Notes under the pieces: model-generated
The model's database searches: none
What the model was told of the DNA's origin: nothing
Seen by the model: the letters and a program-made list of their open reading frames with translations, nothing else
Position numbers and translations under genes: made by a program
Shown: positions 1,072 to 24,746 of the stretch, in pieces
How positions within the stretch are numbered: position 1 is the first letter of the stretch
Layout of the letters: the number at the start of each line of letters is the position of its first letter
NCBI GenBank assembly: GCA_015654575.1
Contig: JAATGR010000071.1
Location: 1 to 63,943, forward strand
DNA from: Actinomycetales bacterium
Lineage (GTDB): Bacteria > Actinomycetota > Actinomycetes > Actinomycetales > Microbacteriaceae
DNA length: 63,943 nucleotides
Reading direction: 5' to 3'

Positions 1072-1878
1072 CTAGGCGTATTTCGTCATCGTGGCGCGTA
1101 CCGCGGAGAACGACGCCTCGACGTCGCCGACCATACCCGGGTGGGTGAACGCGTACGGGTCACCTGCGGCGATCGCGCGGAGAACGATCGCGCCGGCCTC
1201 GGCCGGTTCGATCCACAAATCTTCGTCCTGGATCTTCTGCGCGATGTCGAAGTCCACGAGTGCGCCCCCTGCGCCGGCCGGTCGGTTGCGCAGACTGTCC
1301 TTGATGTTGGTCCGCACCGCTCCCGGATGCAGCACGGTCACGCCGACGTCATGCTTAGCGGCGGCGAGCTCGCCTGCGAGGGTGAGGCTGAGACCTTCGA
1401 CGGCCGCTTTGCTCGCAACATACGGCGCGTATCCAGGAGGGGTGAAGAAACGCGACATCGAGGCGGTGTTGACGATCCATGCACCGTCCGGATTGGCGAT
1501 GAGACGAGGGAGGAAGGCGTGGATGCCGTGGATCACGCCCATGAGGTTGACCTCGAGTACCCACCGCCAATCCTCGAGCGTGAGGTCGACGGTGAGCCCC
1601 TTGGGCCCGACCCCGGCATTGTTCACGAGCAGGTCCACACGCCCGTAGTCGGCGAACACCTGCGTCGCGAGATCCTCGACGCTCTTGGCATCCGTTACGT
1701 CTGTCTCGATCCCGGTGTAGCCGTCTGCGCGCACCCGCTCGAGGGCGGCGACGTCGCGGTCCGCGACGACCACCGTGGCGCCAGCCTGAGTCAGCGCGTC
1801 CGAGATCCCTCTCCCGATGCCGCTCGCGCCGCCTGTGACGACGGCGACACGCCCGTCCCACTCACTGATGCCCTCCAT
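1072..1878 (-). CDS. SDR family oxidoreductase
   Basis: TGGASGIG, NNAG and YVASK motifs; RBS AAGGAGG upstream. Confidence 0.9.
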   Translation of the reverse strand: MEGISEWDGRVAVVTGGASGIGRGISDALTQAGATVVVADRDVAALERVRADGYTGIETDVTDAKSVEDLATQVFADYGRVDLLVNNAGVGPKGLTVDLTLEDWRWVLEVNLMGVIHGIHAFLPRLIANPDGAWIVNTASMSRFFTPPGYAPYVASKAAVEGLSLTLAGELAAAKHDVGVTVLHPGAVRTNIKDSLRNRPAGAGGALVDFDIAQKIQDEDLWIEPAEAGAIVLRAIAAGDPYAFTHPGMVGDVEASFSAVRATMTKYA

Positions 1879-1946
1879 TGGACCTCCTTTATTGAGTGAC
1901 CGTCTTTATGACGATCTCAGTCTCCCGTGTCGAGGCGCCCTGTCGG

Positions 1947-1984
1947 GTCTCACTTTGCATCACGCAGCCGTCTCAACCTGATAG
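1947..1984. promoter_or_regulatory. Two degenerate GTCTCA-N3-TGAGAC operator copies in the divergent SDR/LLM promoter
   Basis: GTCTCActtTGCATC 1947-1961 and GTCTCAaccTGATAG 1970-1984; TAGCGT -10-like hexamer at 2007-2012. Confidence 0.55.
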
Positions 1985-2080
1985 CTCGGTCACCCCGCGC
2001 GCTTCTTAGCGTGGAAGAACGCATCGGATGTCGTATGCGCGCTTGAGCGCGCGGATCCACGACTCGGCAAAGGAGCAGAC

Positions 2081-3187
2081 ATGCATATCGGACTGAATTT
2101 CGGATTCGGCCGGCTGGACCCTACGGTGAGCGATCACGAGGTTTATCGCGGCGAGACGGAGCTGGCGGTTGCGGCTGAGCAACTCGGCTACGACAGCGTC
2201 TGGGCGGTCGAGCACCACTTCAGCGACTACGCGTTTTGCCCCGACAACCTGTTGTGGCTAGCCCACGTCGCCGCGCGAACGCGGCGCATCGGGCTCGGCA
2301 CGGGCGCGGTGATCCTGCCCTGGAACACGCAGCCGCTGCGTGTCGCCGAGAAGCTGCTCATGCTCGACCAACTCAGCGACGGCCGAGCGATCTTTGGCAT
2401 GGGGCGCGGTCTCTCACGAAAGGAGTTCGTCCCCTTCGGTATCCCGCTGGACGAGACCCGCGAGAGATTCGACGAATCATCCAAGATGATCATCGACGCG
2501 ATCGAGACGGGCGTGATCGAGGGCGACGGGCCGTTCTATCCGCAGCAGCGGACCGTCCTGAAGCCCGGCCCGTACTCGAGCTGGAAGGACCGTTTATACA
2601 CCGTCGCTGGATCGCACGACTCGATGGTCTCGGGGGTCAACAACCGTTGCCGATTGATGTCGTTCATCCTGCGCCCGGTCGACAAGATGAAGCCGACCTT
2701 CGACGCGTACCTCGAGCTGTACCGCGAGACGTGGGAAGAGGAGCCGCATCCGGTGTGTCTCAACGTCGCGATGTATTGCCACGAGGACGAGCAGGTTGCC
2801 GTCGACGGCATGTACGAGTACGTGGGCAATTTCTTCGAGGCGAATGTCACCCACTACGAGATGGACGGTGTGCACTTCGCGAACACCAAGGGCTACGAGC
2901 GCTATAGCGACAACGCGGCCCTTATCCGTGAGAAGGGCGTGAGTAAGGCGGGTAAGGACTATGCGGATGCCACGCTGTACGGCACTCCGCGAATGATTCT
3001 CGACAAACTCGTGTGGATCCAGGAGCAATTGGGGGCCTACGAACTGATCCTGCAGCCGTCGTTCGGGGGGATGACCTACGAGACCGCGCGCAAGAGCATC
3101 GAGCTATTCGCCACCGAGGTGGCGCCGAAAGCGCGGCAGCACTATGAGGCCACCGTCGCGCAGCCGGAAGGTGCCGTCTCACGTTGA
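2081..3187 (+). CDS. Luciferase-like (LLM class) flavin-dependent oxidoreductase, copy 1
   Basis: GYDSVWAVEHHF, IGLGTGAVILPW and FGMGRG motifs; RBS AAGGAG. Confidence 0.9.
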   Translation: MHIGLNFGFGRLDPTVSDHEVYRGETELAVAAEQLGYDSVWAVEHHFSDYAFCPDNLLWLAHVAARTRRIGLGTGAVILPWNTQPLRVAEKLLMLDQLSDGRAIFGMGRGLSRKEFVPFGIPLDETRERFDESSKMIIDAIETGVIEGDGPFYPQQRTVLKPGPYSSWKDRLYTVAGSHDSMVSGVNNRCRLMSFILRPVDKMKPTFDAYLELYRETWEEEPHPVCLNVAMYCHEDEQVAVDGMYEYVGNFFEANVTHYEMDGVHFANTKGYERYSDNAALIREKGVSKAGKDYADATLYGTPRMILDKLVWIQEQLGAYELILQPSFGGMTYETARKSIELFATEVAPKARQHYEATVAQPEGAVSR

Positions 3188-3190
3188 CAC
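3176..3190. promoter_or_regulatory. Operator palindrome upstream of LLM copy 2
   Basis: GTCTCAcgtTGACAC; TAGCGT at 3214-3219. Confidence 0.6.
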
Positions 3191-3285: not shown

Positions 3286-4383
3286 ATGCACATCGGAGTG
3301 AACCTGGGCTTCGGACGATTCGACACGTCCGTCTCAGAGCGCGACATCGTGAAGGGTGAGACCGAGCTTGCCGTCCTGTCGGAGCCGCTTGGATACGACA
3401 GCATATGGGCCGTCGAGCACCACTTCACGGACTACTCGTTCATGCCCGACAACCTTCAGTGGCTGTCGTATGTCGCGGCGAAGACCGAGAGGATCGGTCT
3501 GGGCACCGGCGCGGTGATCCTGCCCTGGAACGACCCGCTGCGGGTCGCGGAGAAACTCCTACTGCTGGACAACCTGTCCGACGGGCGTGCGATCTTCGGA
3601 ATGGGTCGCGGCGTCGCTCGAGTCGAGTTCGAGGGCCTACGCATCCCCGTGGGGGAATCGCGCGAGCGCATAGACGAGATGGTGCCGATGATCATCCAGG
3701 CGCTGGAGACCGGATTCATCGAGGGCAACGGCCCGTACTACGCACAGCCGCTGCGCCAGCTCAAGCCGGGGCCGATCCGCACCTTCGCCGACCGCATGTA
3801 CACCGTCGCCGGCTCGGAAGACTCGATCATCGCCGCGGTGAAGAACCGGGTGAGCGTCATGTCGTTCATTCTGCGGCCGGTCGACAAGCTCATCGATACC
3901 TTCGACATCTACAACAAGTTGTGGCGTGAGACCTGGGACGACGAGCCCCAGCCGATCTGCATCAACGCGAACATGTACTGTCACGAGGACGGCGACCTCG
4001 CCAAGGCCCGGATGTACGAGTATCTGGGCAACTTCTGGCACCAGAACGTCGAGCACTACGAGTTCCTCGGCGGGCACTTCGCCTCCCAGAAGGGCTACGA
4101 GCGCTACGCCGAGAAGGCAAAGTCGCTGCGTGAGCGCGGCGTTGAAAAGGCCGGTCAGGACTACGCGGATGCCGCCTTGTCTGGCACGCCCGAGCAGCTC
4201 ATCGCCAAGCTCGCCTGGATCCAGGACATCTTGGGTCAGTACGAACTGGTCGTCGCCCCCTGCTTTGGCGGGATGCCGCACGCAATGGCCGAGGAGAGCC
4301 TGCGGCTGTTCGCCGAGAAGGTGATGCCGACCGCGCGCAGCGCCTACGATGCCCGAGTCGCCGCCGGCGAGAAGGCGCGATGA
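3286..4383 (+). CDS. Luciferase-like (LLM class) flavin-dependent oxidoreductase, copy 2
   Basis: Same motifs and colinear with 2081-3187; both begin MHIG. Alternative TTG start at 3280. Confidence 0.9.
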   Translation: MHIGVNLGFGRFDTSVSERDIVKGETELAVLSEPLGYDSIWAVEHHFTDYSFMPDNLQWLSYVAAKTERIGLGTGAVILPWNDPLRVAEKLLLLDNLSDGRAIFGMGRGVARVEFEGLRIPVGESRERIDEMVPMIIQALETGFIEGNGPYYAQPLRQLKPGPIRTFADRMYTVAGSEDSIIAAVKNRVSVMSFILRPVDKLIDTFDIYNKLWRETWDDEPQPICINANMYCHEDGDLAKARMYEYLGNFWHQNVEHYEFLGGHFASQKGYERYAEKAKSLRERGVEKAGQDYADAALSGTPEQLIAKLAWIQDILGQYELVVAPCFGGMPHAMAEESLRLFAEKVMPTARSAYDARVAAGEKAR

Positions 4384-4401: not shown

Positions 4402-6147
4402 ATGACTGAACCGATCACTGGTGCAACGCGCCGATTCGTCGATGCCGGCGTCCCGATGGCGACCCGCGACGGCGTCACGCTGAGAGCCGTCGTGCACCGG
4501 ATCGCGGATCGCGAGCGGCAGCCGATCGTGCTCGTACGCAACCCGTATGGTGAGCCACTCACCCGCAACCTGCCGATCTGGGCGTTCCTGGACGCCGGGT
4601 TCGCGGTGGTCATCCAAGACTGCCGCGGCACCGGTGACTCGGACGGTGTCTTCGTGCCTTTCGAAGGAGAGTCTGTCGATACGGTGGATGCCGTCCGATG
4701 GTGCGCGCAGCTGCCGTACTCGGACGGGCACGTCGTCACCTACGGCGCCTCGTACTCGGGCATGGTACAGCTGGCCGCTGCGGTCGAGCGGCCCGATGGG
4801 CTGGTCGGCATCGTGCCGGTCGTCGCACCCGACGATTACCAAACGCGGCTCGCCTACCGAGGCGGGGCGTTTCAGCTGGGACAGCTGACCGGCTGGTACA
4901 CGATGAAGACGCTGCAGACACTCCTTTATCGGGCACGGCATGGCGAGGACGTCGGGCACTTGCTTGCGGGTTTCGCCGCACACGCCCGTGACCCGTGGCG
5001 CTTCGTTGGCACGGGCGCGGTAGCGGACGCGCCCGTGCTCAGTGACGTGCTGCCCACCTGGCGGCGCTGGACGGCGCACGACGAAACGGGCGACTACTGG
5101 CCGGCCTTCAGCTACCGCGACCGCCGCGACGCGATCAACGTGCCGGGACTGCACATCGGAGGTTGGTTCGACCTGTTTCTTGGCGGCACCCTCGCTAACT
5201 TCACTGAGCTGCAGGCCCGCGCCGCGACCCCGCGCGCGCGGGAGGGGCAGCGGCTGGTCATCGGGCCCTGGCAGCACGTCGACCAGTCGGGCACCGTCGG
5301 CGACCTGAGCTTTGGCGCCGCTGCGTCGGCGGCCGGCATCGGCCTGGAAGCCGCGGTCGCCGCATTCGCTCACGCCGCCGCGACCGGCGCGGAGATCCCC
5401 GGCCCACCCGTCCGCATCTACGTCATGCGGGCCGGCAGGTGGCGCGACGCCGAGCAGTGGCCCGTTCCCGGTACCCGCTTCACCCCCTGGTACCTACAGC
5501 CGGGCGGCCGGCTGGCGACGACCGAGCCGGATGTGGCCCACAGCGAGTCCATGTACGTGCACGATCCCGCGGATCCGGTCCCGATGCGTGGCGGCCAGTC
5601 CGGAATCTTCGCCGGCGGCCTCGACGGGGGCGCTGAGTGGGGACCGGGCCCGCGCGACCAACGTCCGCTCGACGACCGCGACGACATCCTCCGCTTCACG
5701 AGCGAGCCGCTGGATGCGGATATTGAGGTCACCGGGCCGGTCACGGCAGTGCTGCACGCGGCCACGACCGCCGCTGACGCGGACTTCGTTGCGCGCTTGG
5801 TCGACGTCTTTCCGGACGGGCGGGCGATCGGCATCATCGACGGCATCGTCCGGGCCAAATTCCGTCAAGGGCAGGACCGCGCCGAGCCTGTCCCGGCGGG
5901 CGAACTCTCTGAGCTCCGGATCGACCTCTGGGCGACCAGCTGGCTGTTCGGCGCCGGCCACCGTATCCGCGTAGACATTGCCAGTTCCTCCTTCCCCAAC
6001 TGGGACGTCAACGGAGGTAGCGTCGGCAACAATGCCCAGGTAGCCCCGGCCGACCGGATCGCCGCGACTCAGCGTGTACGTCACGATCGGGTGCACCCCT
6101 CACATATCGTCCTCCCGGTCGTTCCCCTTCCTACCCCGACCCCCTGA
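4402..6147 (+). CDS. CocE/NonD family serine hydrolase (cocaine esterase-like)
   Basis: VRNPYG, nucleophile GASYSG, GWFD and GPWQH triad motifs, plus C-terminal jelly-roll with RIRVDIASSSFP. Confidence 0.9.
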   Translation: MTEPITGATRRFVDAGVPMATRDGVTLRAVVHRIADRERQPIVLVRNPYGEPLTRNLPIWAFLDAGFAVVIQDCRGTGDSDGVFVPFEGESVDTVDAVRWCAQLPYSDGHVVTYGASYSGMVQLAAAVERPDGLVGIVPVVAPDDYQTRLAYRGGAFQLGQLTGWYTMKTLQTLLYRARHGEDVGHLLAGFAAHARDPWRFVGTGAVADAPVLSDVLPTWRRWTAHDETGDYWPAFSYRDRRDAINVPGLHIGGWFDLFLGGTLANFTELQARAATPRAREGQRLVIGPWQHVDQSGTVGDLSFGAAASAAGIGLEAAVAAFAHAAATGAEIPGPPVRIYVMRAGRWRDAEQWPVPGTRFTPWYLQPGGRLATTEPDVAHSESMYVHDPADPVPMRGGQSGIFAGGLDGGAEWGPGPRDQRPLDDRDDILRFTSEPLDADIEVTGPVTAVLHAATTAADADFVARLVDVFPDGRAIGIIDGIVRAKFRQGQDRAEPVPAGELSELRIDLWATSWLFGAGHRIRVDIASSSFPNWDVNGGSVGNNAQVAPADRIAATQRVRHDRVHPSHIVLPVVPLPTPTP

Positions 6148-6200: not shown

Positions 6201-7499
6201 ATGAAGAAGACACGCACTGCCGGCTGGATCGCGCTCGTCGCGGTCTCCGGACTCGCTCTCAGCGCCTGCGCCGGCACCCCGTCGGGCGGCGGTGGCACCG
6301 GAGCAGCGGCCGCCGACGGCACGCTCATCGGCGGCCCAGGCGTCGACATCGACGCGAAGACCATCGAGGTTGGCGCGCTCGTGCCCGTGTCGGGCGTATT
6401 CGCCGGCGCTATCACGAACATCGAAGGTCTGCAGGCCGCGTTCCACCGGGCGACCGAGCCTGGAGGGGACCTCGAGGGCTGGACCGTCGATGTCGTCAAC
6501 CAGGACACGAAGTACGATGCCGCCACCGCGATCCCGCTCTACGAGGGCTTCAAGGACGACGTCGCGATGATCTCGGTCATCCTTGGTTCGAACATCATCG
6601 ACGCGCTGCTGCCGTCGATCGAGACCGACGACATGACACTCATCCCCGGTGGCACCACTCCGAACCTGCAGTTCGAGGATCACGTCGTGCCGAGTCTGCC
6701 GCTCACGAGTGCCCACGCATCCAGCCTCATCCCGTATGTGGTCGAGAACTACGACAAGCAGGATGCGACCTTCTGCTCGCTCACGCAGGAGGACACCCTG
6801 GGCAAGTACGTCACCGAGAACTTCGAGTTCACGCTCGACGAGCTGGGACTGACCAAGGGCGTCGAGACGACCTTCGCGCCTAACGCCGACCAGCTGACCG
6901 CGCAGATCAGCGCTCTCAAAGATGCCGGGTGCGACGTCGTGATGACTGGCGGCACCGGGGCCTTCCTCCAGACTCTCGCTGTGCAGGCATCGCAGCAGGA
7001 CTACTCCCCGCTTGTGCTCGCTGGTAACTCGGCCTACAGCATCACGTTGGCTACTGGGCCCGGCGCCGACTGGCTTGCCGAGAACGCGATCATCTCGGTA
7101 CCCGGCGATGAGTGGCTGGGCACGAACTCACCCGGTCAAGCGATGATGATCGAGGATCTCACAGCGATCAACCCCGACTTCGTGCCGACCGCCAACGCGC
7201 ACCTCACCGGCTACGTGAACGGTCTGCTCACCGCGAAGATCCTCGCCCAGGCGATCTCGGACGGAGATCTGAGCCGCGCGGGCATCGCCAAGGCCGCCAG
7301 CGAAATAGGAACGTGGACGGACGAGCTCGGTCTCACCGGTGGCGACGTTGTGATCGGGACGACGGCGGCGGGCAATGTACCGCCGAGCAAGCTGTCGATG
7401 TTCCGCATCGATGCTTCGGTTCCCACTGGTCTGAAACTGGAGAAGTATTACTACGAATCGAAGGTGACCGACGACTACATCGCGTCGATCCGACCCTGA
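6201..7499 (+). CDS. ABC transporter substrate-binding lipoprotein (Liv/HAAT type), copy 1
   Basis: Signal peptide with lipobox LSAC, RBS AAGGAG, followed by LivFGHM-like genes. Confidence 0.85.
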   Translation: MKKTRTAGWIALVAVSGLALSACAGTPSGGGGTGAAAADGTLIGGPGVDIDAKTIEVGALVPVSGVFAGAITNIEGLQAAFHRATEPGGDLEGWTVDVVNQDTKYDAATAIPLYEGFKDDVAMISVILGSNIIDALLPSIETDDMTLIPGGTTPNLQFEDHVVPSLPLTSAHASSLIPYVVENYDKQDATFCSLTQEDTLGKYVTENFEFTLDELGLTKGVETTFAPNADQLTAQISALKDAGCDVVMTGGTGAFLQTLAVQASQQDYSPLVLAGNSAYSITLATGPGADWLAENAIISVPGDEWLGTNSPGQAMMIEDLTAINPDFVPTANAHLTGYVNGLLTAKILAQAISDGDLSRAGIAKAASEIGTWTDELGLTGGDVVIGTTAAGNVPPSKLSMFRIDASVPTGLKLEKYYYESKVTDDYIASIRP

Positions 7500-7507
7500 C
7501 TCCGCTC

Positions 7508-7534
7508 GGGTGGCGGGGGATGCCCCCGCCACCC
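7508..7534 (+). terminator. GC-rich stem-loop after the binding-protein gene (attenuator or mRNA stabiliser)
   Basis: GGGTGGCGGGGG-atg-CCCCCGCCACCC, perfect 12-bp stem; no U-tract. Confidence 0.55.
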
Positions 7535-7570
7535 ACCGACCCCCGTTCACCGGCGCACGAGGAGGTGCCC

Positions 7571-8395
7571 GTGTCCATTGACCGCACAGGGAGTGGTTCC
7601 GCCCGACCCCTGCTCGAACTCATCGACGTTTCCGTCAGCTACTCCGGCGGGGCTGTGCGTGCCCTGCAGGACGTCCAGCTGACGGTGCACGAGGGCCAGA
7701 TCGTCGTGCTGCTGGGTGTCAACGGCGCCGGTAAGACGACGACCCTCTCAGCCATATCCGGGCTGCTGCCTTACACGGGCGGATCCCTCGATTCCGGGGC
7801 GGTGCTGTTCGCCGGGCAAGATCTGAAAGGGCGAAACCCGGCCGCCCGGGTGCAGCGCGGTATCTCGATGGTCATGGAGGGCCGCCGGGTCTTCCCTGAC
7901 CTCACAGTCGATGAGAACCTGACCGCCGGTGGCTTCACTCGCACCCGTGCCGAGACCGCGCAGACACGCGCGCAGATCCTCGAGATGTTCCCGATCCTCG
8001 CGCAGCGGCGGCGACAGTTGGCCGGATTGATGTCCGGCGGCGAGCAGCAGATGCTCGCCATCGGACGTGCACTCATGCAGCGTCCCACCCTGCTCATGCT
8101 CGACGAACCATCACTCGGTCTTGCTCCACTGATCGTGGAGCAGATCAAGAACTACATCGTGGATATCAACCGGCAGGGCACGAGCGTGTTGCTCATCGAG
8201 CAGAACGCCGCTGTGGCGCTCGCGATCGCCGACTACGCGTACGTTCTGGACGGCAAGACCGTGGCGCGGCAGGGCACGGGGGCCGAGCTATTGGCCGACT
8301 CGTCGGTGCAGGAGCTCTACCTCGGCGTCGCCGCCGATGGGCGCCGCTCGTTCCGTGCAGCGCACGACGAACGACGAAAAGGAGCGACCTCGTGA
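7571..8395 (+). CDS. ABC transporter ATP-binding protein (LivF-like)
   Basis: GVNGAGKT, MSGGEQQML and LDEPSLGLAP; GTG after GGAGG. Confidence 0.9.
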   Translation: MSIDRTGSGSARPLLELIDVSVSYSGGAVRALQDVQLTVHEGQIVVLLGVNGAGKTTTLSAISGLLPYTGGSLDSGAVLFAGQDLKGRNPAARVQRGISMVMEGRRVFPDLTVDENLTAGGFTRTRAETAQTRAQILEMFPILAQRRRQLAGLMSGGEQQMLAIGRALMQRPTLLMLDEPSLGLAPLIVEQIKNYIVDINRQGTSVLLIEQNAAVALAIADYAYVLDGKTVARQGTGAELLADSSVQELYLGVAADGRRSFRAAHDERRKGATS

Positions 8396-10094: not shown

Positions 10095-10095
10095 C

Positions 10096-17068: not shown

Positions 17069-17995
17069 TTGAGCGGTGATATCGTCACCGATCGGGTCGA
17101 TGAGTGGACCCGTCTGTTCCCTCCGATCGCGGCGGGGGCACGGTGGGTTGGCCTGTCCGCACAGGAGGAGTTCGAAGGGCGTGTCGCTCGTCGTGTGGTC
17201 GGCGATATCAGCGTCAATCTGCTGCGGGTGCGGGCGAGTGCGCATAGTGTGGAGCGGTCGGTCGAGCAGGTGCGGCGGCGTTCGGATCCGTTCGCGCTCG
17301 CCGCCGTGCAGCTGAGCGGGTCGAGCGTGCTGACGACCCCGACCGGTACCGTGACGCTCACGCCCGGCGACCAGATTGTGCACCTGTGGGAGAGTCCGTC
17401 GCGCTGGAGCTTCCCGGGGAGCTTCTCACTGTTCGTGGTGCGGTTCCCGACGGTGCTCATTCGGTTCGCGCTCGCGGACCCGTCCGTTCCGCTCGGGGTG
17501 CTGCTGCCGACCGGTCGCGGTACGGGTGCGCTCGTGCACGCCTATGTGCGTACGCTCGCAGCGGATATGGACCTGCTGTCACGGCGCGGCGGTGCACGCA
17601 TCGCGCGGGGACTGGTCGAGCTGTTCGGTACAGGGCTGCTCGCCGCCGCGCCCGGGGGTGAGCGCGGCGGCGACGTGTTCGCCCGGGCGACGGCCATGAT
17701 CGACGAGCGCATCGCCGATCACGACCTGGGTGTCACCGTCCTGGCGCAGGCGCTGTACGTGTCGCGGCGGCGGTTGCAGGCCGCGTTCGCCGAGCAGGGG
17801 AGCACGGTGACCGGATGGATCCGCGCGCGGCGCCTGCAGGGCGCCCGTGCCGACCTCGTCGACATCGATCTCCGCGATCGCACCATCGCGGAGATCGCCC
17901 GGCAGTGGGGGTTCCCGGATGCCGCACACTTCACCCACGTGTTTCGCCGCGCCTACGGTCTCTCCCCTCGCGATCACCGCCGCCCTACCTCCTGA
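17069..17995 (+). CDS. AraC family regulator, copy 1 (start uncertain)
   Basis: C-terminal IAEIARQWGFPDAAHFTHVFRRAYGLSP; start inferred by comparison with copy 2. Confidence 0.8.
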   Translation: MSGDIVTDRVDEWTRLFPPIAAGARWVGLSAQEEFEGRVARRVVGDISVNLLRVRASAHSVERSVEQVRRRSDPFALAAVQLSGSSVLTTPTGTVTLTPGDQIVHLWESPSRWSFPGSFSLFVVRFPTVLIRFALADPSVPLGVLLPTGRGTGALVHAYVRTLAADMDLLSRRGGARIARGLVELFGTGLLAAAPGGERGGDVFARATAMIDERIADHDLGVTVLAQALYVSRRRLQAAFAEQGSTVTGWIRARRLQGARADLVDIDLRDRTIAEIARQWGFPDAAHFTHVFRRAYGLSPRDHRRPTS

Positions 17996-18063: not shown

Positions 18064-18930
18064 TCACGCGGAATGTGATCTCCTGCCCGGCCCTGCCCCG
18101 GCATCCGTGGCCGGATCGGACGCTGCATCCTGCGATCCGAGCGGGTGCAGGCTCCGCGTCGCCTCGGCCGCCGCCGCGACCGTTGCCTGCACCAGTGCGG
18201 GCAGGTCCAGGGCGCGCGTCGGCACGACGAGCGAAAGCGCGGCCACCGCCACGCCGGTCGCATCGATCACCGGTGCGGCGACGCCGTCGAACGCGGGATC
18301 GAGTTGGCGACGGCTCACGCAGATGCCGGCGCGCCGCACCTCGCCGAGTACCTCGCGCAGCGCGGCGGGGTCGGTCACCGTCTCGACCGTTGCGGTCGGC
18401 GCCGGTCGCTCCAGGGCGTCGCGACGGGTCGTCTCCTCGCCAAAGGCGACGAGCACGCGTCCGGCCGCGGTCGCCAGCGCGTGGCTGCGCTGGCCGGTCA
18501 CCCGCTGTGCCGAGCGTGTACCCGGCAGCACCTCGATGTTCACCGCGTCGAGTCCGTCGAGCACGGCCAGCACGCACGAGCAGCCGGTGCGATCGACGAG
18601 TCGTTCCATCGCGGGCAGGCACATCTCGCGCAGCAGGCTGCCGCGCGGCGCGAGTGCGGCGAGGCGGCGGATCCGCAGCCCGATCCGATAGCGCCCGTCG
18701 GGTCCGCGTTCCAGCGCGCCCCAGATGCACAGGTCAGACAGCAGACGGTGCGCGGTGCTGAGTGGCACGCCCGCGTGCGCGGCCAGCTGCGACAGCGTCA
18801 GTGCGGGGCGGGCGGGCTGGAACGCGTCCAGCAGATGCAGTGCCCGCTGCACGACCGAGCCCGTCCCGTGACGGGCGGATGTCGCGGGCGCACCCGGCGG
18901 CGTCTCGACCGGCAGATTCCCTTCCATCAT
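18064..18930 (-). CDS. IclR family transcriptional regulator
   Basis: SVVQRALHLLDAF HTH; ATAAGRVLVAF and VAAPVID motifs. Confidence 0.85.
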   Translation of the reverse strand: MMEGNLPVETPPGAPATSARHGTGSVVQRALHLLDAFQPARPALTLSQLAAHAGVPLSTAHRLLSDLCIWGALERGPDGRYRIGLRIRRLAALAPRGSLLREMCLPAMERLVDRTGCSCVLAVLDGLDAVNIEVLPGTRSAQRVTGQRSHALATAAGRVLVAFGEETTRRDALERPAPTATVETVTDPAALREVLGEVRRAGICVSRRQLDPAFDGVAAPVIDATGVAVAALSLVVPTRALDLPALVQATVAAAAEATRSLHPLGSQDAASDPATDAGAGPGRRSHSA

Positions 18931-19023: not shown

Positions 19024-19563
19024 ATGGACCAACGACTCGAACAGCGGATCCGAGTGCTCCTGGACCGGGAGGATATCCGCGACGCCCTCACCCGGTACAC
19101 GCGCGGCATGGACCGCCACGACCTGGCACTCATCGCCTCCGCCTATCACCCGGATGCTCGGGACCGCCACGGGCGCTTCGATGGCGACCGGCACAGCGTG
19201 GGGGAGAAGGCCTCTTACCATCACGCGCAGAGCTATCAGGCGCACAGTCACCAGATCGGCAACATCACCTTCGCCTTCGAAAGCGACGACGTCTGCCACA
19301 CCGAGACGTACTTCCACATCGTGCTCTCCCGAAAGGGTGATCGGACGCCGAACGACCTGCTCGGCGGGCGCTACCTCGACCGCTTCGAGCGTCGCGAGGG
19401 TGTGTGGCGGATCGCCGACCGCGAGGTCGTCCTCGACTGGCGTGGCGAGCACCTGCCTGTCTCGGATGCCGGTGACCACGATATCAACCGCACCTACCCG
19501 CAGGGGGCTTGGGACCGCAGCGACCTGTCGTACGTGCGCATGGCCGCGGCATCCCCCGCCTGA
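19024..19563 (+). CDS. NTF2/SnoaL-like family protein
   Basis: LLDREDIRDALTRYTRGMDRHD, AYHPDA and GGRYLDRFERREGVWRIADR. Confidence 0.85.
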   Translation: MDQRLEQRIRVLLDREDIRDALTRYTRGMDRHDLALIASAYHPDARDRHGRFDGDRHSVGEKASYHHAQSYQAHSHQIGNITFAFESDDVCHTETYFHIVLSRKGDRTPNDLLGGRYLDRFERREGVWRIADREVVLDWRGEHLPVSDAGDHDINRTYPQGAWDRSDLSYVRMAAASPA

Positions 19564-19620: not shown

Positions 19621-20910
19621 ATGCATGCTCGACGACGCGCTGCCGGAACGCTTCTCATCGGCGCGCTGCTGCTGGCCGGCTGCGCGGGAACGCCCACCGC
19701 CGGTACACCCGCTGTGGGCGGCGACAGTGGCGACGGGATCCCCGCCTCACCCGGCTGGGACCCCGAGACCCGGACGATCACGGTCGGCTCTCTCGTGCCG
19801 GTCTCGGGGGTCTTCACCGCCGCATATAGTCAGGTGCAGGGCGGGGAGGCCGCTTTCGCGCGGGCGACAGCGGCCGGCGGCCCGCTCGAGGGGTATACGG
19901 TCGACCTCGTCAACTTCGACTCCCAATACAACGCCTCGGTCGCTGTTCCGCTGTATCAGAGCAACAAGGACAACGTGCTGTTGTTCCAGAGCATCATCGG
20001 CGCTCCGATCGTGAACGCGCTGCTGCCAGCTCTGGAGGATGACGATATGCTCGCCGTCCCGGGATTGTCGACCGAGGATTTCGTCACCGATCCGAATATT
20101 CTCCCGTTCGGGCCAATCCAGCCGACATATGCCGCTGCAGCCGTCGACTACGCGTCTTCCGAGCTGGGGCTGGATGACGGCGTGTTCTGCTCGATGACCT
20201 CGGAGGACGAGTCGGGGGAAGCGTACCGGCGCGGGTTCCGTTTCGCTCTGGACGAGACGGGCCGCACCGCGGGCGCCGACGTCACCTACCCGGTGGGCGG
20301 CGAGGAGTTCACCTCGCAGGTCACGAAGCTCAAGAACGCCGGATGCGATCTCGTGTTTCTCACCGGCAGCGGCGCCGTCCTGCAGAACACAGCAGTCGAA
20401 GCCACGCAGCTGGACTTCCCGACCTCGTGGGTGGTCCCGGCATCCGCCATCTTGGCGACGACCTCGACTGGTCCGGCCGCGGACTACATCATCGACCACG
20501 TGCACGTGCTCATGACGGGGACCGAGTGGAATGGTACACAGGCGCCCGGTCAGCGGCAGATGCAGGATGATCTGGAGGCACTGTTCCCCGGGTACACGCC
20601 GTATGCGAACAGCTACCAGACTGGATACCTGTCGTCGACGGTCGTCATCGCGCTCCTGGAGCGCGCGATCGCCGACCGTGACCTATCGCGGGCGCACCTC
20701 GTCGAGCTCGCGGCCGAACTCGGGGATGTCGATGACCTCGGCATGGGTGGCGGCACGTTCCACTACGGACAGCAGCTATCGGATCGGCGGCCGAACACTG
20801 CGCTGTCGGTGTTCCGTGTCGACCCAGCGAGCCCGATCGGGCTCACGCTGCAGGAGTTCCAGTACGCGTCGCCGCTCGCGGATGCGTACAACCGCGCCAC
20901 GTTCGGCTGA
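19621..20910 (+). CDS. ABC transporter substrate-binding lipoprotein (Liv/HAAT type), copy 2, orphan
   Basis: Lipobox LAGC; colinear with 6201-7499 (LVPVSGVF, AGCD, DLSRA); no adjacent permease. Confidence 0.85.
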   Translation: MHARRRAAGTLLIGALLLAGCAGTPTAGTPAVGGDSGDGIPASPGWDPETRTITVGSLVPVSGVFTAAYSQVQGGEAAFARATAAGGPLEGYTVDLVNFDSQYNASVAVPLYQSNKDNVLLFQSIIGAPIVNALLPALEDDDMLAVPGLSTEDFVTDPNILPFGPIQPTYAAAAVDYASSELGLDDGVFCSMTSEDESGEAYRRGFRFALDETGRTAGADVTYPVGGEEFTSQVTKLKNAGCDLVFLTGSGAVLQNTAVEATQLDFPTSWVVPASAILATTSTGPAADYIIDHVHVLMTGTEWNGTQAPGQRQMQDDLEALFPGYTPYANSYQTGYLSSTVVIALLERAIADRDLSRAHLVELAAELGDVDDLGMGGGTFHYGQQLSDRRPNTALSVFRVDPASPIGLTLQEFQYASPLADAYNRATFG

Positions 20911-20940
20911 ATCCCGCCCCTGTTTCGGTCCGCCACCCAG

Positions 20941-20993: not shown

Positions 20994-21031
20994 TCACGCA
21001 GATATCGCGCGCCGGGCGCCGCCCTTGTCGC

Positions 21032-22612
21032 TCAGCGCCCGCCGCGTCCGGGCCAGACCCCATACCGTCCGGGCGAGAGGATGCCAGCGGGGTCCACGGC
21101 ATCCTTGATCTTCTCCACGAAGCGGCGATAGGCGTGATCGTTCCACGACATGTAGTCGGCGACCTCCTCCATGAAGTCGAGATGCGACCGGTACTCGCTG
21201 TAGCCGAGCGCGGCGAGCTCGGCGACGAGCGTGCGCGCAGTGTCGTAGGCGGCACGTGCCTCGGCCTCCTCACGCGGGTCGAAGTTGATCGCCGAGACGA
21301 CCACGCAGGTCCGCTCGTTGAGCAGCATGACACCGGCTTTATAGTTGAGGCCGGTGCGCTCCTCGGTCGTCGTGCGCACGGTGTTCACGACCGACATCAC
21401 TTGCTCGCCGAGCAGCGGCACGAGCGGGGCGATGCCGATGTGCGCGAAGCCGGCGCCCTTGTACTTGATGACGTCGAGATTAGGCACCCCCGCCGTGATG
21501 CGGCTCGAGATCGAGGGGATCTGCTCGTACTCATCGGATGCGTAGACGCCCTCGACCGTCATCCTCGCCCCGGGGATCCGCTCCCACGCGCGGCGGACAT
21601 TCTCGATCTGCAGCGCGACCTCGGCGCGGTCGCCCCAGAGCGCCGCGCGCATGTACCACCGCCCGAGGCCGGTGCGTTCGGCGATCTCATCGATCTCCTC
21701 CTCGCCGACCGCACCCTCTTCGGCGCGTCGTATCACGTCGGGCACGCCGGTCATCGTGGCGGCCATGAGCGTGCTGTAGAGGCAGGGCACCCCGCGCAGC
21801 TGGTTCTTCAACCGCAGCTCGCGCAGCACATTGACCGCTTCGGCCAGGTCGGCGTCGCGGGCGAGCGTCATGTGCAGCGGGGCGTATGCCTCGGGCGCCG
21901 GCATCAGCCACACACCCATCCGTACGACGATCCCGAGGTTGGACTGTGTGAACAGCGGGTCGAGGGCGGGGCCGACGCCGCGTTTGTAGAGGTGCCACGT
22001 GGGGTTGTCGGGCATGGCGCCCATGCCGGTGCGCAGCAGCGTGCCGTCGGCGAGCACGACCTCCATGCCGGTCGGAGCGAGGAAGTCGGCACCGTACGGC
22101 AGGTAGGTGACGCCGTTATCGAGCGAGTTGCCGATAACGCTGCCCCATCCGATGTCGGGCACCGAGAGCATCAGCCGTGAGCCGCGCCGCCGCAGCTCGT
22201 CGTAGAGGTCGAACCAGCGCACCCCCGGCTCGACGACCGCGAAGGCGAGGTCCTCGTCGATCTCGATGACGTGGTTCATCCGCCGCAGGCTGAGAGAGAT
22301 CGAGCCGCCCAGCCGGGGCGACGAGCCGCCGTAGCCGTTGTTGCGTCCCTGCGAGTGCGTCCACACCGGGATGCCGGTCTCATTCGCGAGCCGCACGATC
22401 TGCTGCACCTGCTCGGTGGAGGTGGGGTGGACGGCGACGGATGCCGTGTACGTGTCGTCCCCGGGGATCCAGTACGGGTCGCGCAGCGGCCAGTCGGGGT
22501 CGGCCATGAGGTCGTCCTCGAGGACGACGCCCTCGTCACCGACGATGGCGCGTAGCCGGTCGACGATCTCGGTGGTGAGCGCGGGGGCCGCGAGCGGCGG
22601 TGCATCGGTCAT
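21032..22612 (-). CDS. VAO/PCMH family 4-phenol oxidase, copy 2
   Basis: GRNNGYGG, PDIGWGSVIGN, AHIGIAP and EYRSH; RBS GAGGAGG before MTDAPP. Confidence 0.88.
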   Translation of the reverse strand: MTDAPPLAAPALTTEIVDRLRAIVGDEGVVLEDDLMADPDWPLRDPYWIPGDDTYTASVAVHPTSTEQVQQIVRLANETGIPVWTHSQGRNNGYGGSSPRLGGSISLSLRRMNHVIEIDEDLAFAVVEPGVRWFDLYDELRRRGSRLMLSVPDIGWGSVIGNSLDNGVTYLPYGADFLAPTGMEVVLADGTLLRTGMGAMPDNPTWHLYKRGVGPALDPLFTQSNLGIVVRMGVWLMPAPEAYAPLHMTLARDADLAEAVNVLRELRLKNQLRGVPCLYSTLMAATMTGVPDVIRRAEEGAVGEEEIDEIAERTGLGRWYMRAALWGDRAEVALQIENVRRAWERIPGARMTVEGVYASDEYEQIPSISSRITAGVPNLDVIKYKGAGFAHIGIAPLVPLLGEQVMSVVNTVRTTTEERTGLNYKAGVMLLNERTCVVVSAINFDPREEAEARAAYDTARTLVAELAALGYSEYRSHLDFMEEVADYMSWNDHAYRRFVEKIKDAVDPAGILSPGRYGVWPGRGGR

Positions 22613-22784
22613 GGGTGTCCTCCTCGACACGGGCGCCCGGCCGGTCGGACGGGCGACGACAGGATCATTCACACGATCGTTGCCCGTCGAGCATCGTGCA
22701 CAGAAGTATCGGGATGCCGCGTTCCCGTGCTATTTAAGTGGCATGGTCGCCGACGGAAGGGACATGATCGGGGAGGGGAGGGGC

Positions 22785-23753
22785 ATGGTCGGCGGAGGGG
22801 CGGGGGACCTCGACCTGGTCACGCGGGACACGACGCGGTGGCGCGCGCACTTCCCCTCGATTCGCGCGGGCGCGAGCTGGGTGGGCAGCGACCTCGAGAG
22901 CGACTTCGAGGGCCGTGTCGCACGCCGTGTCGTGGGCGACTCCAGCGTGAGCGTGCTCACGGTCCGCGGCCACGCGCACGCGATCGTGCGCACCTCGGCG
23001 CAGGTGGGCACCGTCCCCGATCCGTTCGTGCTCGCCGCGGTGCAGTTGTCCGGCACGAGCCGGCTCGAGACCGTCCGCGGCACGGCCTTGCTCCGCCCTG
23101 GCGACCACCTCGTCGCCACCTGGACCACCCCCTCGCGCTGGGCGTTCCCCGGTGAGTTCACCCTTTTCATCGCGCGGATGCCGGCGGAGCGCCTACGCGC
23201 TGCGCTCACCCTGCCCGACGCCCCCGTCGGACAGGTGCTCCCCGGCCGCGCCGGTGTCGGCGTCGCCCTCCTTCCCTTCGTCGCCTCCCTGGCCGAGAAC
23301 CTCGACCTGCTCCGCGGCCGCGGCGGACCGCGCGTGCTGGCCGCCGTCGCCGACCTGTTTAGCGCGAGCCTCGTGGCACGCGCGAGCGAAGAGGCTGGCC
23401 GCGGCATCCGGTCGGCACGGGCTGACACGTTCGACCGGGCGACCGCCTGGATCGACGGGCGTCCGCAGGATCCCGCTCTGGGGGTCGAGACGATCGCCGT
23501 CGGCCTCGCCGTCTCGCGACGCCACCTGCAGGCCGCGTTTGCCGAGCGCGGCGAGACCGTGACGGGGTGGATCCGTCGCCGCCGGCTCGAGGGCGCCGCC
23601 GCCGCCCTTGAGGATCCCGCCCTCGGGCACCGGTCGATCGAGGCTATCGCGCGCGAGTGGGGGTTCGCGCACGCCTCGTACTTCGCCCGGTCGTTCCGCG
23701 CGCAGTACGGCTGCACCCCGGGGGGATGGCGCCGCGGCGTCGTCTCACACTGA
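22785..23753 (+). CDS. AraC family regulator, copy 2 (start approximate)
   Basis: IEAIAREWGFAHASYFARSFRAQYGCTP; shares FEGRVARRVVGD with copy 1. Confidence 0.82.
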   Translation: MVGGGAGDLDLVTRDTTRWRAHFPSIRAGASWVGSDLESDFEGRVARRVVGDSSVSVLTVRGHAHAIVRTSAQVGTVPDPFVLAAVQLSGTSRLETVRGTALLRPGDHLVATWTTPSRWAFPGEFTLFIARMPAERLRAALTLPDAPVGQVLPGRAGVGVALLPFVASLAENLDLLRGRGGPRVLAAVADLFSASLVARASEEAGRGIRSARADTFDRATAWIDGRPQDPALGVETIAVGLAVSRRHLQAAFAERGETVTGWIRRRRLEGAAAALEDPALGHRSIEAIAREWGFAHASYFARSFRAQYGCTPGGWRRGVVSH

Positions 23754-23756
23754 GAC
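23742..23756. promoter_or_regulatory. Perfect operator palindrome upstream of the second LigD/LigO-like SDR
   Basis: cGTCTCAcacTGAGACg; CACGCT at 23780-23785. Confidence 0.7.
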
Positions 23757-23840
23757 GCCCCGCCTCTGCCGCGCCGGGGCACGCTGGGATGACGGCGCCC
23801 ACACCGATGCGGGCGCACCCCGGGTCGAGGAGGTCCCCGC

Positions 23841-24746
23841 GTGGAAGATGTCACCGGCAGGGTCGCGCTCATCACCGGCGGCGCCTCGGGCGTCGGCCTC
23901 GGCCAGGCGCGGGTGTTCGGTCGACTCGGATGTCGGGTCGCGATCGTCGACGTGCGCCAGGAGGCGCTCGACGAGGCCGAGGCAGCGCTGCGCGTGGAGG
24001 GCATCGATGTGCACGCGGTCGTGCTCGACATCCGTGACCGGGAGGCGTGGGCCGACGTGGTGGACGGGGTCGAGGAGCGGTTCGGCGACCCGGTCACGCT
24101 GTTGTTCAGTACCGCGGGCGTGAACGGGTTCGGCCCGCTCGAGAAGGCGAGCTACGCCGACTTCGACTGGATCCTCGGGGTCAACCTCGGCGGGGTCGTC
24201 AACGGCATCCAGACGGTGCTGCCCCGCATCCTCTCCGCCGGGCGCGGCGGCCATCTCGTCACGGTCGCGTCGATGGCGGGGTTCCAGGGCAGCGCGACCG
24301 CCGCCATCTACGCGGCGTCCAAGGCCGCGGTGATCACCCTCATGGAGAGCTACGCGCTGACCCTGCCCGCGCAGGGCGTAGGGGTCTCGCTGTTGTGCCC
24401 GGCGAGCGTGCGCACCGACATCGCCCGCGCCCTCGATCGGCGCCCGGCCGAGTTCGCCATGGAATCGAGCTTCACGGACGACCCGCGGTTCGTCTCGCTG
24501 CAGCAGCAGCTGTATGCCGGCGGCATGGACCCGATCGAACTCGCCGAGCACGTGCACGCGGCGATCGTGCACGACCGGTTCTGGGTGCTTCCGTTTACCG
24601 AGACCCGCGAGGGGCTGCGCGCGTACTTCGACAGCGTCCTGGCCGGATACGACGCCTTCGATACCGATCCCGCAGCGGCCGCCGGGCGCGCCGCGGCGTT
24701 CGCGCAGTACCGCGAGGCCGCGCGCCGGCTCGGTGACGCCCCCTGA
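23841..24746 (+). CDS. SDR resembling lignin C-alpha dehydrogenases LigD/LigO
   Basis: TGGASGVGLGQARVFG, STAGVNGFGPLEKASYADFDW, YAASK and DRFWVLPF; paralog of 11259-12176; RBS GAGGAGG. Confidence 0.78.
   Translation: MEDVTGRVALITGGASGVGLGQARVFGRLGCRVAIVDVRQEALDEAEAALRVEGIDVHAVVLDIRDREAWADVVDGVEERFGDPVTLLFSTAGVNGFGPLEKASYADFDWILGVNLGGVVNGIQTVLPRILSAGRGGHLVTVASMAGFQGSATAAIYAASKAAVITLMESYALTLPAQGVGVSLLCPASVRTDIARALDRRPAEFAMESSFTDDPRFVSLQQQLYAGGMDPIELAEHVHAAIVHDRFWVLPFTETREGLRAYFDSVLAGYDAFDTDPAAAAGRAAAFAQYREAARRLGDAP

What the first reader, a model, noticed from the sequence alone, without database searches (positions are those of the whole stretch)
1072..24746. Candidate glutathione-independent pathway for lignin dimer or lignan side-chain cleavage in an actinobacterium
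Seen: two LigD/LigO-like SDRs and a third related SDR, two tandem LLM flavin monooxygenases, a CocE-type esterase, a flavin reductase, an ABC importer, two VAO-type oxidases and an NTF2 protein, four units linked by one operator motif; no GST-fold LigE/F/G gene lies in the window. Known: sphingomonads oxidise C-alpha with LigD/L/N/O and then use glutathione beta-etherases; most actinobacteria lack glutathione; LLM enzymes include two-component Baeyer-Villiger monooxygenases (diketocamphane monooxygenases); cocaine esterase cleaves benzoyl esters. Inference: C-alpha alcohol -> aryl ketone (SDRs or oxidases) -> Baeyer-Villiger ester or C-beta hydroxylation (LLMs plus reductase) -> hydrolysis (CocE), giving a vanillate-type acid and a hemiacetal that releases guaiacol. 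I know of no described pathway with this gene set.
Basis: partly seen in the sequence, partly recalled or inferred. Interest (0 to 1): 0.92.

Follow-up and report, generated by a model that had tools for sequence, protein, structure and literature searches.

The report
Glutathione-free lignin dimer cleavage cluster
A gene cluster conserved in several actinobacteria joins LigD-type lignin dehydrogenases to a flavin monooxygenase, an esterase and a two-carbon salvage module, and likely splits lignin-derived dimers without the glutathione that the known beta-etherases need, although none of its enzymes has been tested.

Summary
All listed genes are present. The unit runs on to 28075: the last dehydrogenase heads an operon with a class II aldolase, a CbbY-type xylulose-bisphosphate phosphatase and DhaL/DhaK. 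Two of three SDRs form the sister clade of sphingomonad LigD (96/99 support); the third does not. No LigE/F-like GST was found in the 82%-complete genome. All 16 related LLM loci carry the Fis-type activator; 14 carry an esterase-type gene and 12 the SDR1 type. The palindrome GTCTCA-N3-TGAGAC is conserved upstream. LigD-like genes occur in 8 Micrococcales genomes with this LLM; 6 of these place the aldolase-CbbY-DhaLK cassette right behind them. The VAO/NTF2 block is an insertion outside the operator set. Best reading (0.45): C-alpha oxidation, Baeyer-Villiger insertion, ester hydrolysis to vanillate, a phenol and glycolaldehyde, with glycolaldehyde entering the pentose phosphate pathway through xylulose-1,5-bisphosphate. 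Rivals: aryl migration to methoxyhydroquinone; beta-1 dimers or monomers as substrate. Nothing was assayed. I found no described pathway with this gene set.

The parts
1072..1878 (-). SDR1, C-alpha-dehydrogenase-related SDR outside the LigD/LigO clade; part of the conserved core
1947..1984 (.). two weak operator copies (3 and 2 mismatches) in the divergent SDR1/LLM1 promoter
   Evidence: same position in Leucobacter and G049
2081..3187 (+). LLM1, luciferase-like flavin monooxygenase (VEHHF motif intact)
3176..3190 (.). operator copy (1 mismatch) upstream of LLM2
3286..4383 (+). LLM2, paralogue 62% identical to LLM1
4402..6147 (+). CocE/NonD serine hydrolase; Ser117, Asp257, His292, Tyr49, Trp165 align with cocaine esterase
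6201..11262 (+). LIV-type ABC importer: binding protein, two ATPases, two permeases
11259..12176 (+). SDR2, LigD-clade dehydrogenase (53-55% to sphingomonad LigD orthologues)
12227..13978 (+). Fis-HTH activator with degenerate AAA+ domain (no GAFTGA), predicted to bind the palindrome
14028..15197 (-). flavin reductase fused to a GntR/FCD domain
15261..15275 (.). exact operator GTCTCA-N3-TGAGAC upstream of the flavin reductase
15313..16905 (-). VAO1, 4-phenol oxidase family (accessory insertion)
17027..17995 (+). AraC regulator 1 (accessory)
18064..18930 (-). IclR regulator (accessory)
19024..19563 (+). SnoaL_4/NTF2 protein (accessory; no orthologue in the 16 related loci)
19621..20910 (+). second solute-binding protein, 41% to the first (accessory)
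21032..22612 (-). VAO2, 4-phenol oxidase family (accessory; orthologue in 2 related genomes)
22785..23753 (+). AraC regulator 2 (accessory)
23742..23756 (.). exact operator upstream of the SDR3 operon
23841..24746 (+). SDR3, LigD-clade dehydrogenase (43-48% to LigD orthologues)
25655..26395 (+). CbbY-family HAD phosphatase (xylulose-1,5-bisphosphate phosphatase relatives)
26392..27042 (+). DhaL-type kinase subunit
   Evidence: TIGR02365 170.8 bits, cut-off 138.3
27080..28075 (+). DhaK-type kinase subunit
   Evidence: TIGR02363 418.5 bits, cut-off 406.25

Best explanation
[quoted passage not shown] Shown: gene content, family and clade placement, operator, synteny. Inferred steps: (1) import by the LIV-type ABC system; (2) SDR2, SDR3 and SDR1 cover the C-alpha stereoisomers; (3) LLM1 and LLM2, fed reduced flavin by the reductase, act as type II Baeyer-Villiger oxygenases, perhaps one per C-beta enantiomer, with the aryloxy-bearing carbon migrating to give Ar-CO-O-CH(OAr')-CH2OH; (4) CocE frees the aromatic acid and the hemiacetal collapses; (5) DhaKL phosphorylates glycolaldehyde, the aldolase joins it to DHAP to give xylulose-1,5-bisphosphate, and CbbY removes the 1-phosphate to give xylulose-5-phosphate; (6) vanillate goes via LigM (elsewhere in the genome) to the pca genes in the window.
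For: SDR2/SDR3 clade is sister to sphingomonad LigD orthologues, SH-aLRT/UFBoot 96.1/99 in a 44-row tree; one of those orthologues hits PDB 4y98 at E 7e-148 and two are followed by GST genes. LigD-like genes are rare: 0 of 400 other genomes of the order at E<=1e-45, yet present with this LLM in 8 genomes (window plus G049, G544, G545, G547, G549, G554, G555). Of 16 related LLM loci (>=53% identity) 16 have the Fis activator, 12 an SDR1 type, 11 CocE, and the 3 Geodermatophilus loci have a tannase/feruloyl esterase or BD-FAE esterase within 10 kb instead. The cassette follows the SDR3 orthologue directly in 6 of those 8 genomes, in 0 of 8 tested genomes whose LLM locus lacks a LigD-like gene, and in 13 of 400 class genomes overall. 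The phosphatase's best solved relatives are AtCbbY (E 1.7e-53) and RsCbbY, which PMC10212915 reports as XuBP-selective; the same paper made XuBP by aldol addition of DHAP to glycolaldehyde phosphate. No RbcL or PRK hit in the assembly, and a separate canonical dhaKLM exists on C262. VanAB lies within about 10 kb of the cluster in Arthrobacter, Crystallibacter and Leucobacter; LigM is in this genome (899 bits, cut-off 580) and in 5 of 5 others tested against 42 of 150 in the genus. C-alpha/C-beta cleavage of phenylpropanoids gives glycolaldehyde (PMC9811514). Whole-cell precedent: Acinetobacter TUS-SO1 turns 2-phenoxyacetophenone into benzoate and phenol, BVMO proposed (PMC8861056).
Against: No activity or expression data. 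Chemical Baeyer-Villiger oxidation of methoxy-substituted lignin model ketones gave mainly the aryl ester, the opposite direction (PMC9026536 passage). A PIG3-type quinone oxidoreductase sits under the same operator in 3 loci (L002, L003, L148), which fits a hydroquinone product. The LLM is no closer to the camphor BVMOs than to other LLMs (19% vs 24-25% for luciferase/RslO1). The core (LLM, SDR1, esterase, activator) occurs without LigD-like genes in 5 of 5 such genomes tested, so the LLM's ancestral substrate need not be a dimer. 2 of 8 LigD+LLM genomes lack the cassette (G544, G049). LigD also oxidises beta-1 dimers, and transporters have not been implicated for uncharged dimers (PMC12997858). 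TUS-SO1 did not act on MPHPV. VanA of the Arthrobacter type was not found in this genome or 5 others, and no guaiacol demethylase was identified. The genomes are related, so the co-occurrence counts may reflect few events.
Confidence: 0.45

Rival explanations
1. Same enzyme order, but the aryl ring migrates, as in the 4-hydroxyacetophenone monooxygenase route (recalled): the esterase frees (methoxy)hydroquinone and an aliphatic acid, and the beta-ether is not cut at this step. The VAO oxidases would feed 4-alkylphenol-derived benzylic alcohols into it.
For: Aryl ester is the main chemical product for methoxy-bearing ketones; quinone oxidoreductase under the operator in 3 loci; Pseudomonas SG-MS2 funnels one pinoresinol ring to methoxyhydroquinone (PMC12607616 passage); VAO1/2 keep the phenolate-binding Tyr-Tyr-Arg and the FAD-linking His.
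Against: An acid product gives no carbonyl substrate for DhaKL, so the cassette's link to the LigD-like gene is unexplained; VanAB is adjacent in 3 genomes; VAO genes are in only 2 of 16 related loci.
Confidence: 0.2
2. The chemistry is as in the best reading but the true substrates are not beta-O-4 dimers: beta-1 dimers (DGPD), guaiacylglycerol-type monomers or their ketones. For DGPD two rounds of SDR and LLM would give two vanillates plus a one- or two-carbon aldehyde, and the cassette might then fix formaldehyde through erythrulose phosphate.
For: LigD and LigL oxidise threo-DGPD; two LLMs and three SDRs fit sequential steps as well as stereoisomers; the core exists without LigD-like genes; aryl-C3 triol and ketodiol products of lignin breakdown are described (PMC10795516 passage).
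Against: For free guaiacylglycerol ketone the ester would collapse by itself (inference), yet an esterase-type gene is kept in 14 of 16 loci; CbbY relatives act on a pentulose bisphosphate, which fits a C2 better than a C1 aldehyde.
Confidence: 0.2
3. The LLMs hydroxylate C-beta of the ketone; the hemiketal releases the phenol and an aryl diketone, which CocE or the SDRs process further.
For: Nearest solved folds are luciferase and the tailoring monooxygenase RslO1, not a BVMO.
Against: CocE keeps a typical esterase triad and aligns over its full length with a benzoyl-ester hydrolase; C-C hydrolysis of a diketone by this family is not known to me.
Confidence: 0.08
4. The cluster serves a non-lignin benzylic alcohol or ketone, and the LigD likeness reflects ancestry only.
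For: Identity to LigD orthologues (43-55%) is below that among them (65-73%); more distant LLMs (40-50%) sit in acyl-CoA-type clusters.
Against: The window also holds hydroxycinnamate beta-oxidation-like and protocatechuate genes, the genome has six LigM/DesA-type genes, and VanAB flanks the cluster in 3 genomes.
Confidence: 0.07

Closest known systems
Sphingomonad beta-aryl ether pathway (LigD/L/N/O, LigE/F/P, LigG/Nu-class GST)
   Same: Begins with LigD-clade SDR oxidation of C-alpha; several SDRs for stereoisomers; vanillate funnel with LigM.
   Different: No GST found in the assembly; LLM, flavin reductase and esterase stand where ligFEG stand; C-alpha/C-beta would be cut, not the ether by thiolysis; ABC importer and C2 cassette attached.
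Acinetobacter sp. TUS-SO1 cleavage of 2-phenoxyacetophenone (PMC8861056)
   Same: Ketone to aromatic acid plus phenol; Baeyer-Villiger route proposed.
   Different: No genes identified in the parts read; no activity on MPHPV or on the alcohol; here a full regulon with dehydrogenases and C2 salvage.
Type II Baeyer-Villiger monooxygenases (3,6-diketocamphane monooxygenase, PDB 5aec/4uwm)
   Same: LLM TIM barrel, separate flavin reductase, paralogue pair, downstream hydrolase (pathway logic recalled).
   Different: 19% identity in the fold search; the window's LLMs are nearer luciferase alpha and RslO1.
4-hydroxyacetophenone / 4-ethylphenol route of Pseudomonas (recalled)
   Same: VAO-family oxidase, dehydrogenase, Baeyer-Villiger oxygenase, esterase in series.
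   Different: Uses a type I FAD BVMO with aryl migration on monomers; no LigD-clade SDR, no C2 cassette.
CbbY xylulose-1,5-bisphosphate phosphatase (RsCbbY, AtCbbYA)
   Same: Best solved relatives; HAD core and cap stretches shared in the alignment.
   Different: No Rubisco or PRK found; operon with aldolase and DhaKL suggests XuBP is a planned intermediate, not a Rubisco misfire product.
Pseudomonas sp. SG-MS2 pinoresinol route (PinAB), as summarised in PMC12997858 and PMC12607616
   Same: VAO/PCMH-family enzyme on a dimer; glutathione-free oxidative logic.
   Different: VAO1/2 are of the His-linked oxidase type with no cytochrome partner and are accessory; the primary paper could not be read, so its full gene list is unchecked.

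Membership tests
LigD C-alpha-dehydrogenases (SDR2, SDR3) | Groups with LigD to the exclusion of LigO/LigN-type SDRs | tested here: met
   Sister clade, 96.1/99 (93 SH-aLRT). 4y98 = LigD, 4ya6 = LigO, 4yae = LigL is recalled; titles say only 'C alpha-dehydrogenase'; GST neighbours of L150 and L153 support it.
LigD C-alpha-dehydrogenases (SDR2, SDR3) | Classical SDR motifs TGxxxGxG and YxxxK | tested here: met
LigD C-alpha-dehydrogenases (SDR2, SDR3) | NAD+-dependent oxidation of GGE | not testable with these tools
   needs assay
LigD/LigO clade (SDR1) | Clade membership | tested here: not met
   29-35% to both groups, separate clade; best PDB hit 4yae E 1e-40, close to an uncharacterised SDR at 2.6e-39; no LigL orthologue was in the tree
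Glutathione beta-etherase pathway | LigE/F/G GST genes | tested here: not met
   0 hits with 3 GST queries in an 81.6% complete assembly
Diketocamphane-type (type II) BVMO | LLM fold with separate flavin reductase | tested here: met
   model pLDDT 92, fold search, reductase in 9 of 16 loci
Diketocamphane-type (type II) BVMO | Closest relative is DKCMO | tested here: not met
   ranks 25-26, 19% identity; luciferase and RslO1 rank first
Diketocamphane-type (type II) BVMO | Baeyer-Villiger activity | not testable with these tools
   needs assay
CocE/NonD hydrolases | Family score and Ser-Asp-His triad with oxyanion Tyr | tested here: met
   residue roles recalled; one pocket Trp of cocaine esterase is not kept
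CbbY XuBP phosphatases | HAD-IA core plus CbbY cap stretches (E-x2/3-H, GGKER, H-x2-KT) shared by RsCbbY and AtCbbYA | tested here: met
   the published list of 13 signature residues was not visible in the text
CbbY XuBP phosphatases | Rubisco / cbb context | tested here: not met
   no RbcL or PRK hit
CbbY XuBP phosphatases | XuBP selectivity | not testable with these tools
   needs assay
PTS-dependent DhaKLM | DhaM in the operon | tested here: not met
   none in the cassette; a separate dhaKLM is on C262
4-phenol oxidases (EUGO/VAO) | Tyr-Tyr-Arg phenolate cluster, catalytic Asp, FAD-linking His | tested here: met
   residues named in PMC11148156, found
Pinoresinol alpha-hydroxylase PinAB | Cytochrome partner and dehydrogenase type | tested here: not met
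   no cytochrome gene beside VAO1/2; oxidases rank above flavocytochromes
LdpA/PcfL deformylases (NTF2) | Sequence closeness to LdpA | tested here: inconclusive
   no PDB hit at E<=0.1 (that LdpA is in the PDB is recalled); generic SnoaL_4 clusters; model unusable

The most novel reading that the evidence does not exclude
This is the first genetically defined glutathione-free route for beta-O-4 lignin dimers: a luciferase-family Baeyer-Villiger oxygenase and a cocaine-esterase relative replace LigE/F/G behind a LigD shared with sphingomonads, and a natural kinase-aldolase-CbbY module assimilates the released glycolaldehyde with no carbon loss, using the Rubisco inhibitor xylulose-1,5-bisphosphate as a regular intermediate in a bacterium without Rubisco.
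Probability: 0.4. Interest if true: 0.93.

Novelty: new variant of a known kind. Interest (0 to 1): 0.8.

Why it matters
Beta-O-4 is the commonest lignin linkage, and in the reviews read the only selective intracellular bacterial enzymes for it are sphingomonad glutathione etherases. How actinobacteria handle such dimers, beyond peroxidases, is open. This cluster names five testable enzymes and cultured strains that carry them. A thiol-free route giving vanillate directly would suit Rhodococcus or Corynebacterium hosts. The four-gene cassette, found alone in 13 of 400 actinomycete genomes, may be a natural glycolaldehyde assimilation route and would give CbbY a role outside carbon fixation.

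Tried and rejected
Motif with 3 mismatches: not above chance in the window; only near-exact copies were used. Sigma-70 promoter scan: 0 sites. VAO/NTF2/AraC block as core: rejected, VAO in 2 of 16 related loci, NTF2 in 0; the 144-aa SnoaL of Arthrobacter is unrelated by BLAST. Epimerase 54-989: in 0 of 16 loci. GlcD-like oxidase upstream of the LLM in two Geodermatophilus loci: first read as C2 handling, dropped because the operator lies between it and the LLM. VanA in this genome: not found over the cut-off; LigM found instead. Guaiacol demethylase: the one P450 found (C269) could not be assigned. NTF2 single-sequence model: pLDDT 36, not searched. First tree (79 rows) did not finish its careful search; a 44-row tree was built, leaving out the CouN outgroup, the longest branches and redundant rows. 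Close LLM relatives in 5 sphingomonads with LigD-type genes: only 34-37% in 2 of 5. Metagenome scan with SDR2: 3 short loci, 2 syntenic. Sequencing runs: no RNA holder listed; the three same-study runs carry the label 'wood decay metagenome'; no reads were laid. No complex prediction was run. Paper searches for a described pathway and for the cassette found none; the library lacks most subscription papers, and the SG-MS2 primary paper is not held, so its co-induced gene list is unchecked. No supplements were read.

Full report
Observation. The window is contig C209 of a 3.12 Mb, 69% GC assembly, 81.6% complete; its closest named protein relatives are from Microbacterium. Beyond lie a CoA-ligase/MaoC/acyl-CoA dehydrogenase/amidohydrolase/SDR/MarR module (28158-33848) and the protocatechuate branch pcaHGBDC, pcaIJF, pcaR (37402-46122).

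Operator. GTCTCA-N3-TGAGAC is not enriched at 3 mismatches (21 seen, 26.8 expected), but both exact copies in the genome are in the cluster, as are 3 of 4 near-exact ones. In related loci an exact copy lies just upstream of an LLM gene in 10 of 16, a 1-mismatch copy in one more, none in five; there are 0 exact copies in 313,332 control bases. The Fis-HTH activator is in 16 of 16 loci, so it is the likely binder (inferred). In G049, Leucobacter and metagenome locus L192 the flavin reductase and SDR3 are directly divergent. The window's VAO1-AraC-IclR-NTF2-SBP2-VAO2-AraC block (15313-23753) is inserted between the two operators of that promoter; Microbacterium sp. 18062 has one VAO-AraC pair beside its flavin reductase. 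The oxidases and NTF2 are therefore accessory.

Dehydrogenases. SDR2 and SDR3 have PDB 4y98 as best hit (E 7e-93 and 1e-80); by eye about 54% and 44% identical. That 4y98 is LigD is recalled. I collected relatives from 151 genomes of the family of a Sphingobium locus (22 with a hit). The top four share 65-73% with each other; one hits 4y98 at E 7e-148 and two are followed by GST genes. In a 44-row tree the actinobacterial SDR2 and SDR3 clades together are sister to these LigD orthologues (96.1/99), with the LigO-type group outside (quick 79-row tree agrees, 93). SDR1 falls outside both groups. The nesting suggests transfer from sphingomonad-like donors, but the root is a midpoint and direction was not tested. 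No GST hit was found in the assembly with three queries.

Monooxygenases and esterase. LLM1 and LLM2 keep the VEHHF motif. The model (pLDDT 92) matches luciferases and RslO1 first (24-25%) and diketocamphane monooxygenase at 19%, so fold says monooxygenase, not which reaction. CocE aligns full length with cocaine esterase (E 1e-92) with the triad intact.

Synteny. A scan of half the genome collection gave 79 loci; with later searches 16 loci have an LLM at 53% identity or more. Among them: activator 16, SDR1 type 12, CocE 11, flavin reductase 9, LigD-like SDR 7, cassette 5, VAO 2, NTF2 0 (several contigs are short, and G549 and G545 are pieced from separate contigs). The three Geodermatophilus loci have a tannase/feruloyl esterase or BD-FAE esterase nearby in place of CocE. 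The cluster is rare: LLM in 2 of 150 other genus genomes and 5 of 400 class genomes; LigD-like SDR in 0 of 400 order genomes. In Arthrobacter hankyongi and Crystallibacter degradans the whole set, from cocE through importer, LLM, activator, SDR1, reductase, LigD-like SDR to the cassette, lies on one strand, flanked by vanAB. LLMs at 40-50% identity sit in other contexts.

The cassette. The phosphatase's best solved relatives are AtCbbY and RsCbbY. PMC10212915 (passages) reports them as selective for xylulose-1,5-bisphosphate and made that sugar from DHAP and glycolaldehyde phosphate by aldol addition. The assembly gave no RbcL or PRK hit and has a separate dhaKLM. The order aldolase-CbbY-DhaL-DhaK is kept in 13 of 14 class genomes with a CbbY hit, with its own GAF/LuxR regulator in 10 of 11 loci scanned, and on a Cryobacterium plasmid with aquaporin, tpiA, rpiB and transketolase. 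None of those 14 is among the 5 LLM-positive genomes of the same sample. It follows the LigD-like gene directly in 6 of 8 genomes that have both LigD-like SDR and LLM (not G544, G049), and was found in 0 of 8 LLM genomes whose locus lacks LigD, 5 of which were also checked genome-wide for LigD. Kinase, aldolase and XuBP phosphatase chain to xylulose-5-phosphate if the input is glycolaldehyde; that DhaK accepts glycolaldehyde is recalled and untested. A formaldehyde/erythrulose reading is possible. Glycolaldehyde is the C-beta/C-gamma fragment of C-alpha/C-beta cleavage (PMC9811514, passages). An earlier AI note on another genome (e1-751789) also reads this cassette as building sugar phosphates from a small carbonyl compound; it is not independent proof.

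Aromatic product. LigM is on contig C64, one of six LigM/DesA-type genes, and in 5 of 5 other cluster genomes tested against 42 of 150 in the genus. Arthrobacter-type VanA was not found in this genome or those five. HpaB-like phenol hydroxylases lie near the cluster in Arthrobacter and behind SDR2 in G549, which would fit a released phenol; in this genome the fate of guaiacol is unidentified. Against the vanillate direction: chemical oxidation of methoxy-bearing model ketones gave mainly aryl esters (PMC9026536, one passage), and a quinone oxidoreductase shares the operator in three loci.

Mechanism. Most likely (0.45): import; C-alpha oxidation; Baeyer-Villiger insertion with migration of the aryloxy carbon; hydrolysis to vanillate, guaiacol and glycolaldehyde; salvage through XuBP. 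All catalytic steps are inferred. Rivals: aryl migration (0.2), beta-1 or monomeric substrates (0.2), C-beta hydroxylation (0.08), non-lignin substrate (0.07). That the cluster acts on lignin-derived arylpropanoids by some SDR-LLM-hydrolase sequence is more secure, about 0.85-0.9. Related genomes are not independent, so the counts may rest on few acquisition events.

Literature. PMC12997858 (2026 review; parts 1-3 of 7 read) lists no LLM/esterase dimer route. PMC10795516 (passages) names peroxidase C-alpha/C-beta cleavage and glutathione etherases. PMC8861056 (parts 1-3 of 5) is the nearest precedent: 2-phenoxyacetophenone to benzoate and phenol, BVMO proposed, no genes in the parts read, no activity on MPHPV. 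PMC12607616 and PMC13406360 were seen as passages, PMC11148156 parts 1-2 of 5. Ten searches found no description of this gene set or of the cassette; subscription papers, including the SG-MS2 cluster paper, and all supplements were unseen and could hold a precedent.

Verdict. Observation confirmed and extended; interpretation partly supported. It works like LigD followed by a type II Baeyer-Villiger oxygenase and esterase, but is a member of neither the Lig etherase pathway nor the camphor BVMO family. New variant of a known kind; interest 0.8.

Noticed in passing
window 24796-28075; L101-L113; L115: Aldolase-CbbY-DhaL-DhaK is a mobile four-gene cassette in 13 of 400 actinomycete genomes, mostly with a GAF-histidine kinase-receiver-LuxR hybrid regulator; on Cryobacterium plasmid pA10BH1 it sits next to a Tn3 transposase with aquaporin, tpiA, rpiB and split transketolase. 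Candidate natural glycolaldehyde assimilation route in its own right.
   Followed up: partly
window 28158-33848: CoA ligase, MaoC hydratase, acyl-CoA dehydrogenase, amidohydrolase, SDR and MarR: resembles the phd/cou hydroxycinnamate beta-oxidation module (names recalled).
   Followed up: partly
window 37402-46122: Protocatechuate ortho-cleavage genes pcaH, G, B, D, C, I, J, F and pcaR-type regulator.
   Followed up: partly
window 47672-55281: Unassigned phenolic cluster: two VOC proteins, alpha/beta hydrolase, SDR, cupin, FAD monooxygenase, extradiol dioxygenase, RpiB-like protein, quinone oxidoreductase. Could take the released phenol or a hydroquinone.
   Followed up: no
window 14028-15197: Flavin reductase fused to a GntR/FCD domain; fused (389-390 aa) in Microbacteriaceae loci, unfused (158-180 aa) in Arthrobacter, Citricoccus and Thermopolyspora.
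   Followed up: partly
G000:C64, C37, C68 (L185-L190): Six LigM/DesA-type O-demethylase genes in one genome, one above the LigM cut-off, two beside purU; LigM orthologues in 42 of 150 genus genomes.
   Followed up: partly
L117 (Rhodococcus rhodochrous GD02 plasmid) 5058-16846: Cluster of similar logic with a 41% LLM: SDRs, second LLM, CoA ligase, alpha/beta hydrolase, NTF2, flavin reductase, riboflavin synthesis gene, GAF regulator.
   Followed up: no
L006 2459-6256: Second LLM copy in Microbacterium sp. 18062: activator, LLM, then a CmcJ/NvfI-family oxidoreductase; no esterase or exact operator.
   Followed up: no
L003 355-4300, L005 1982-5950, L007 7179-9775: Zn alcohol dehydrogenase plus aldehyde dehydrogenase lie under the same operator in three relatives but are absent from the window's cluster.
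   Followed up: partly
window 15313-23753: VAO-AraC pair is duplicated (61% and 51%); VAO1 has Asp and VAO2 Gly two residues after the FAD-linking His, a position reported to shift substrate choice (PMC11148156).
   Followed up: partly
L116 (Shinella plasmid) 11121-12702: Aldolase-CbbY pair without DhaKL between a sugar-kinase/ABC unit and an acetoin-dehydrogenase-like complex.
   Followed up: no
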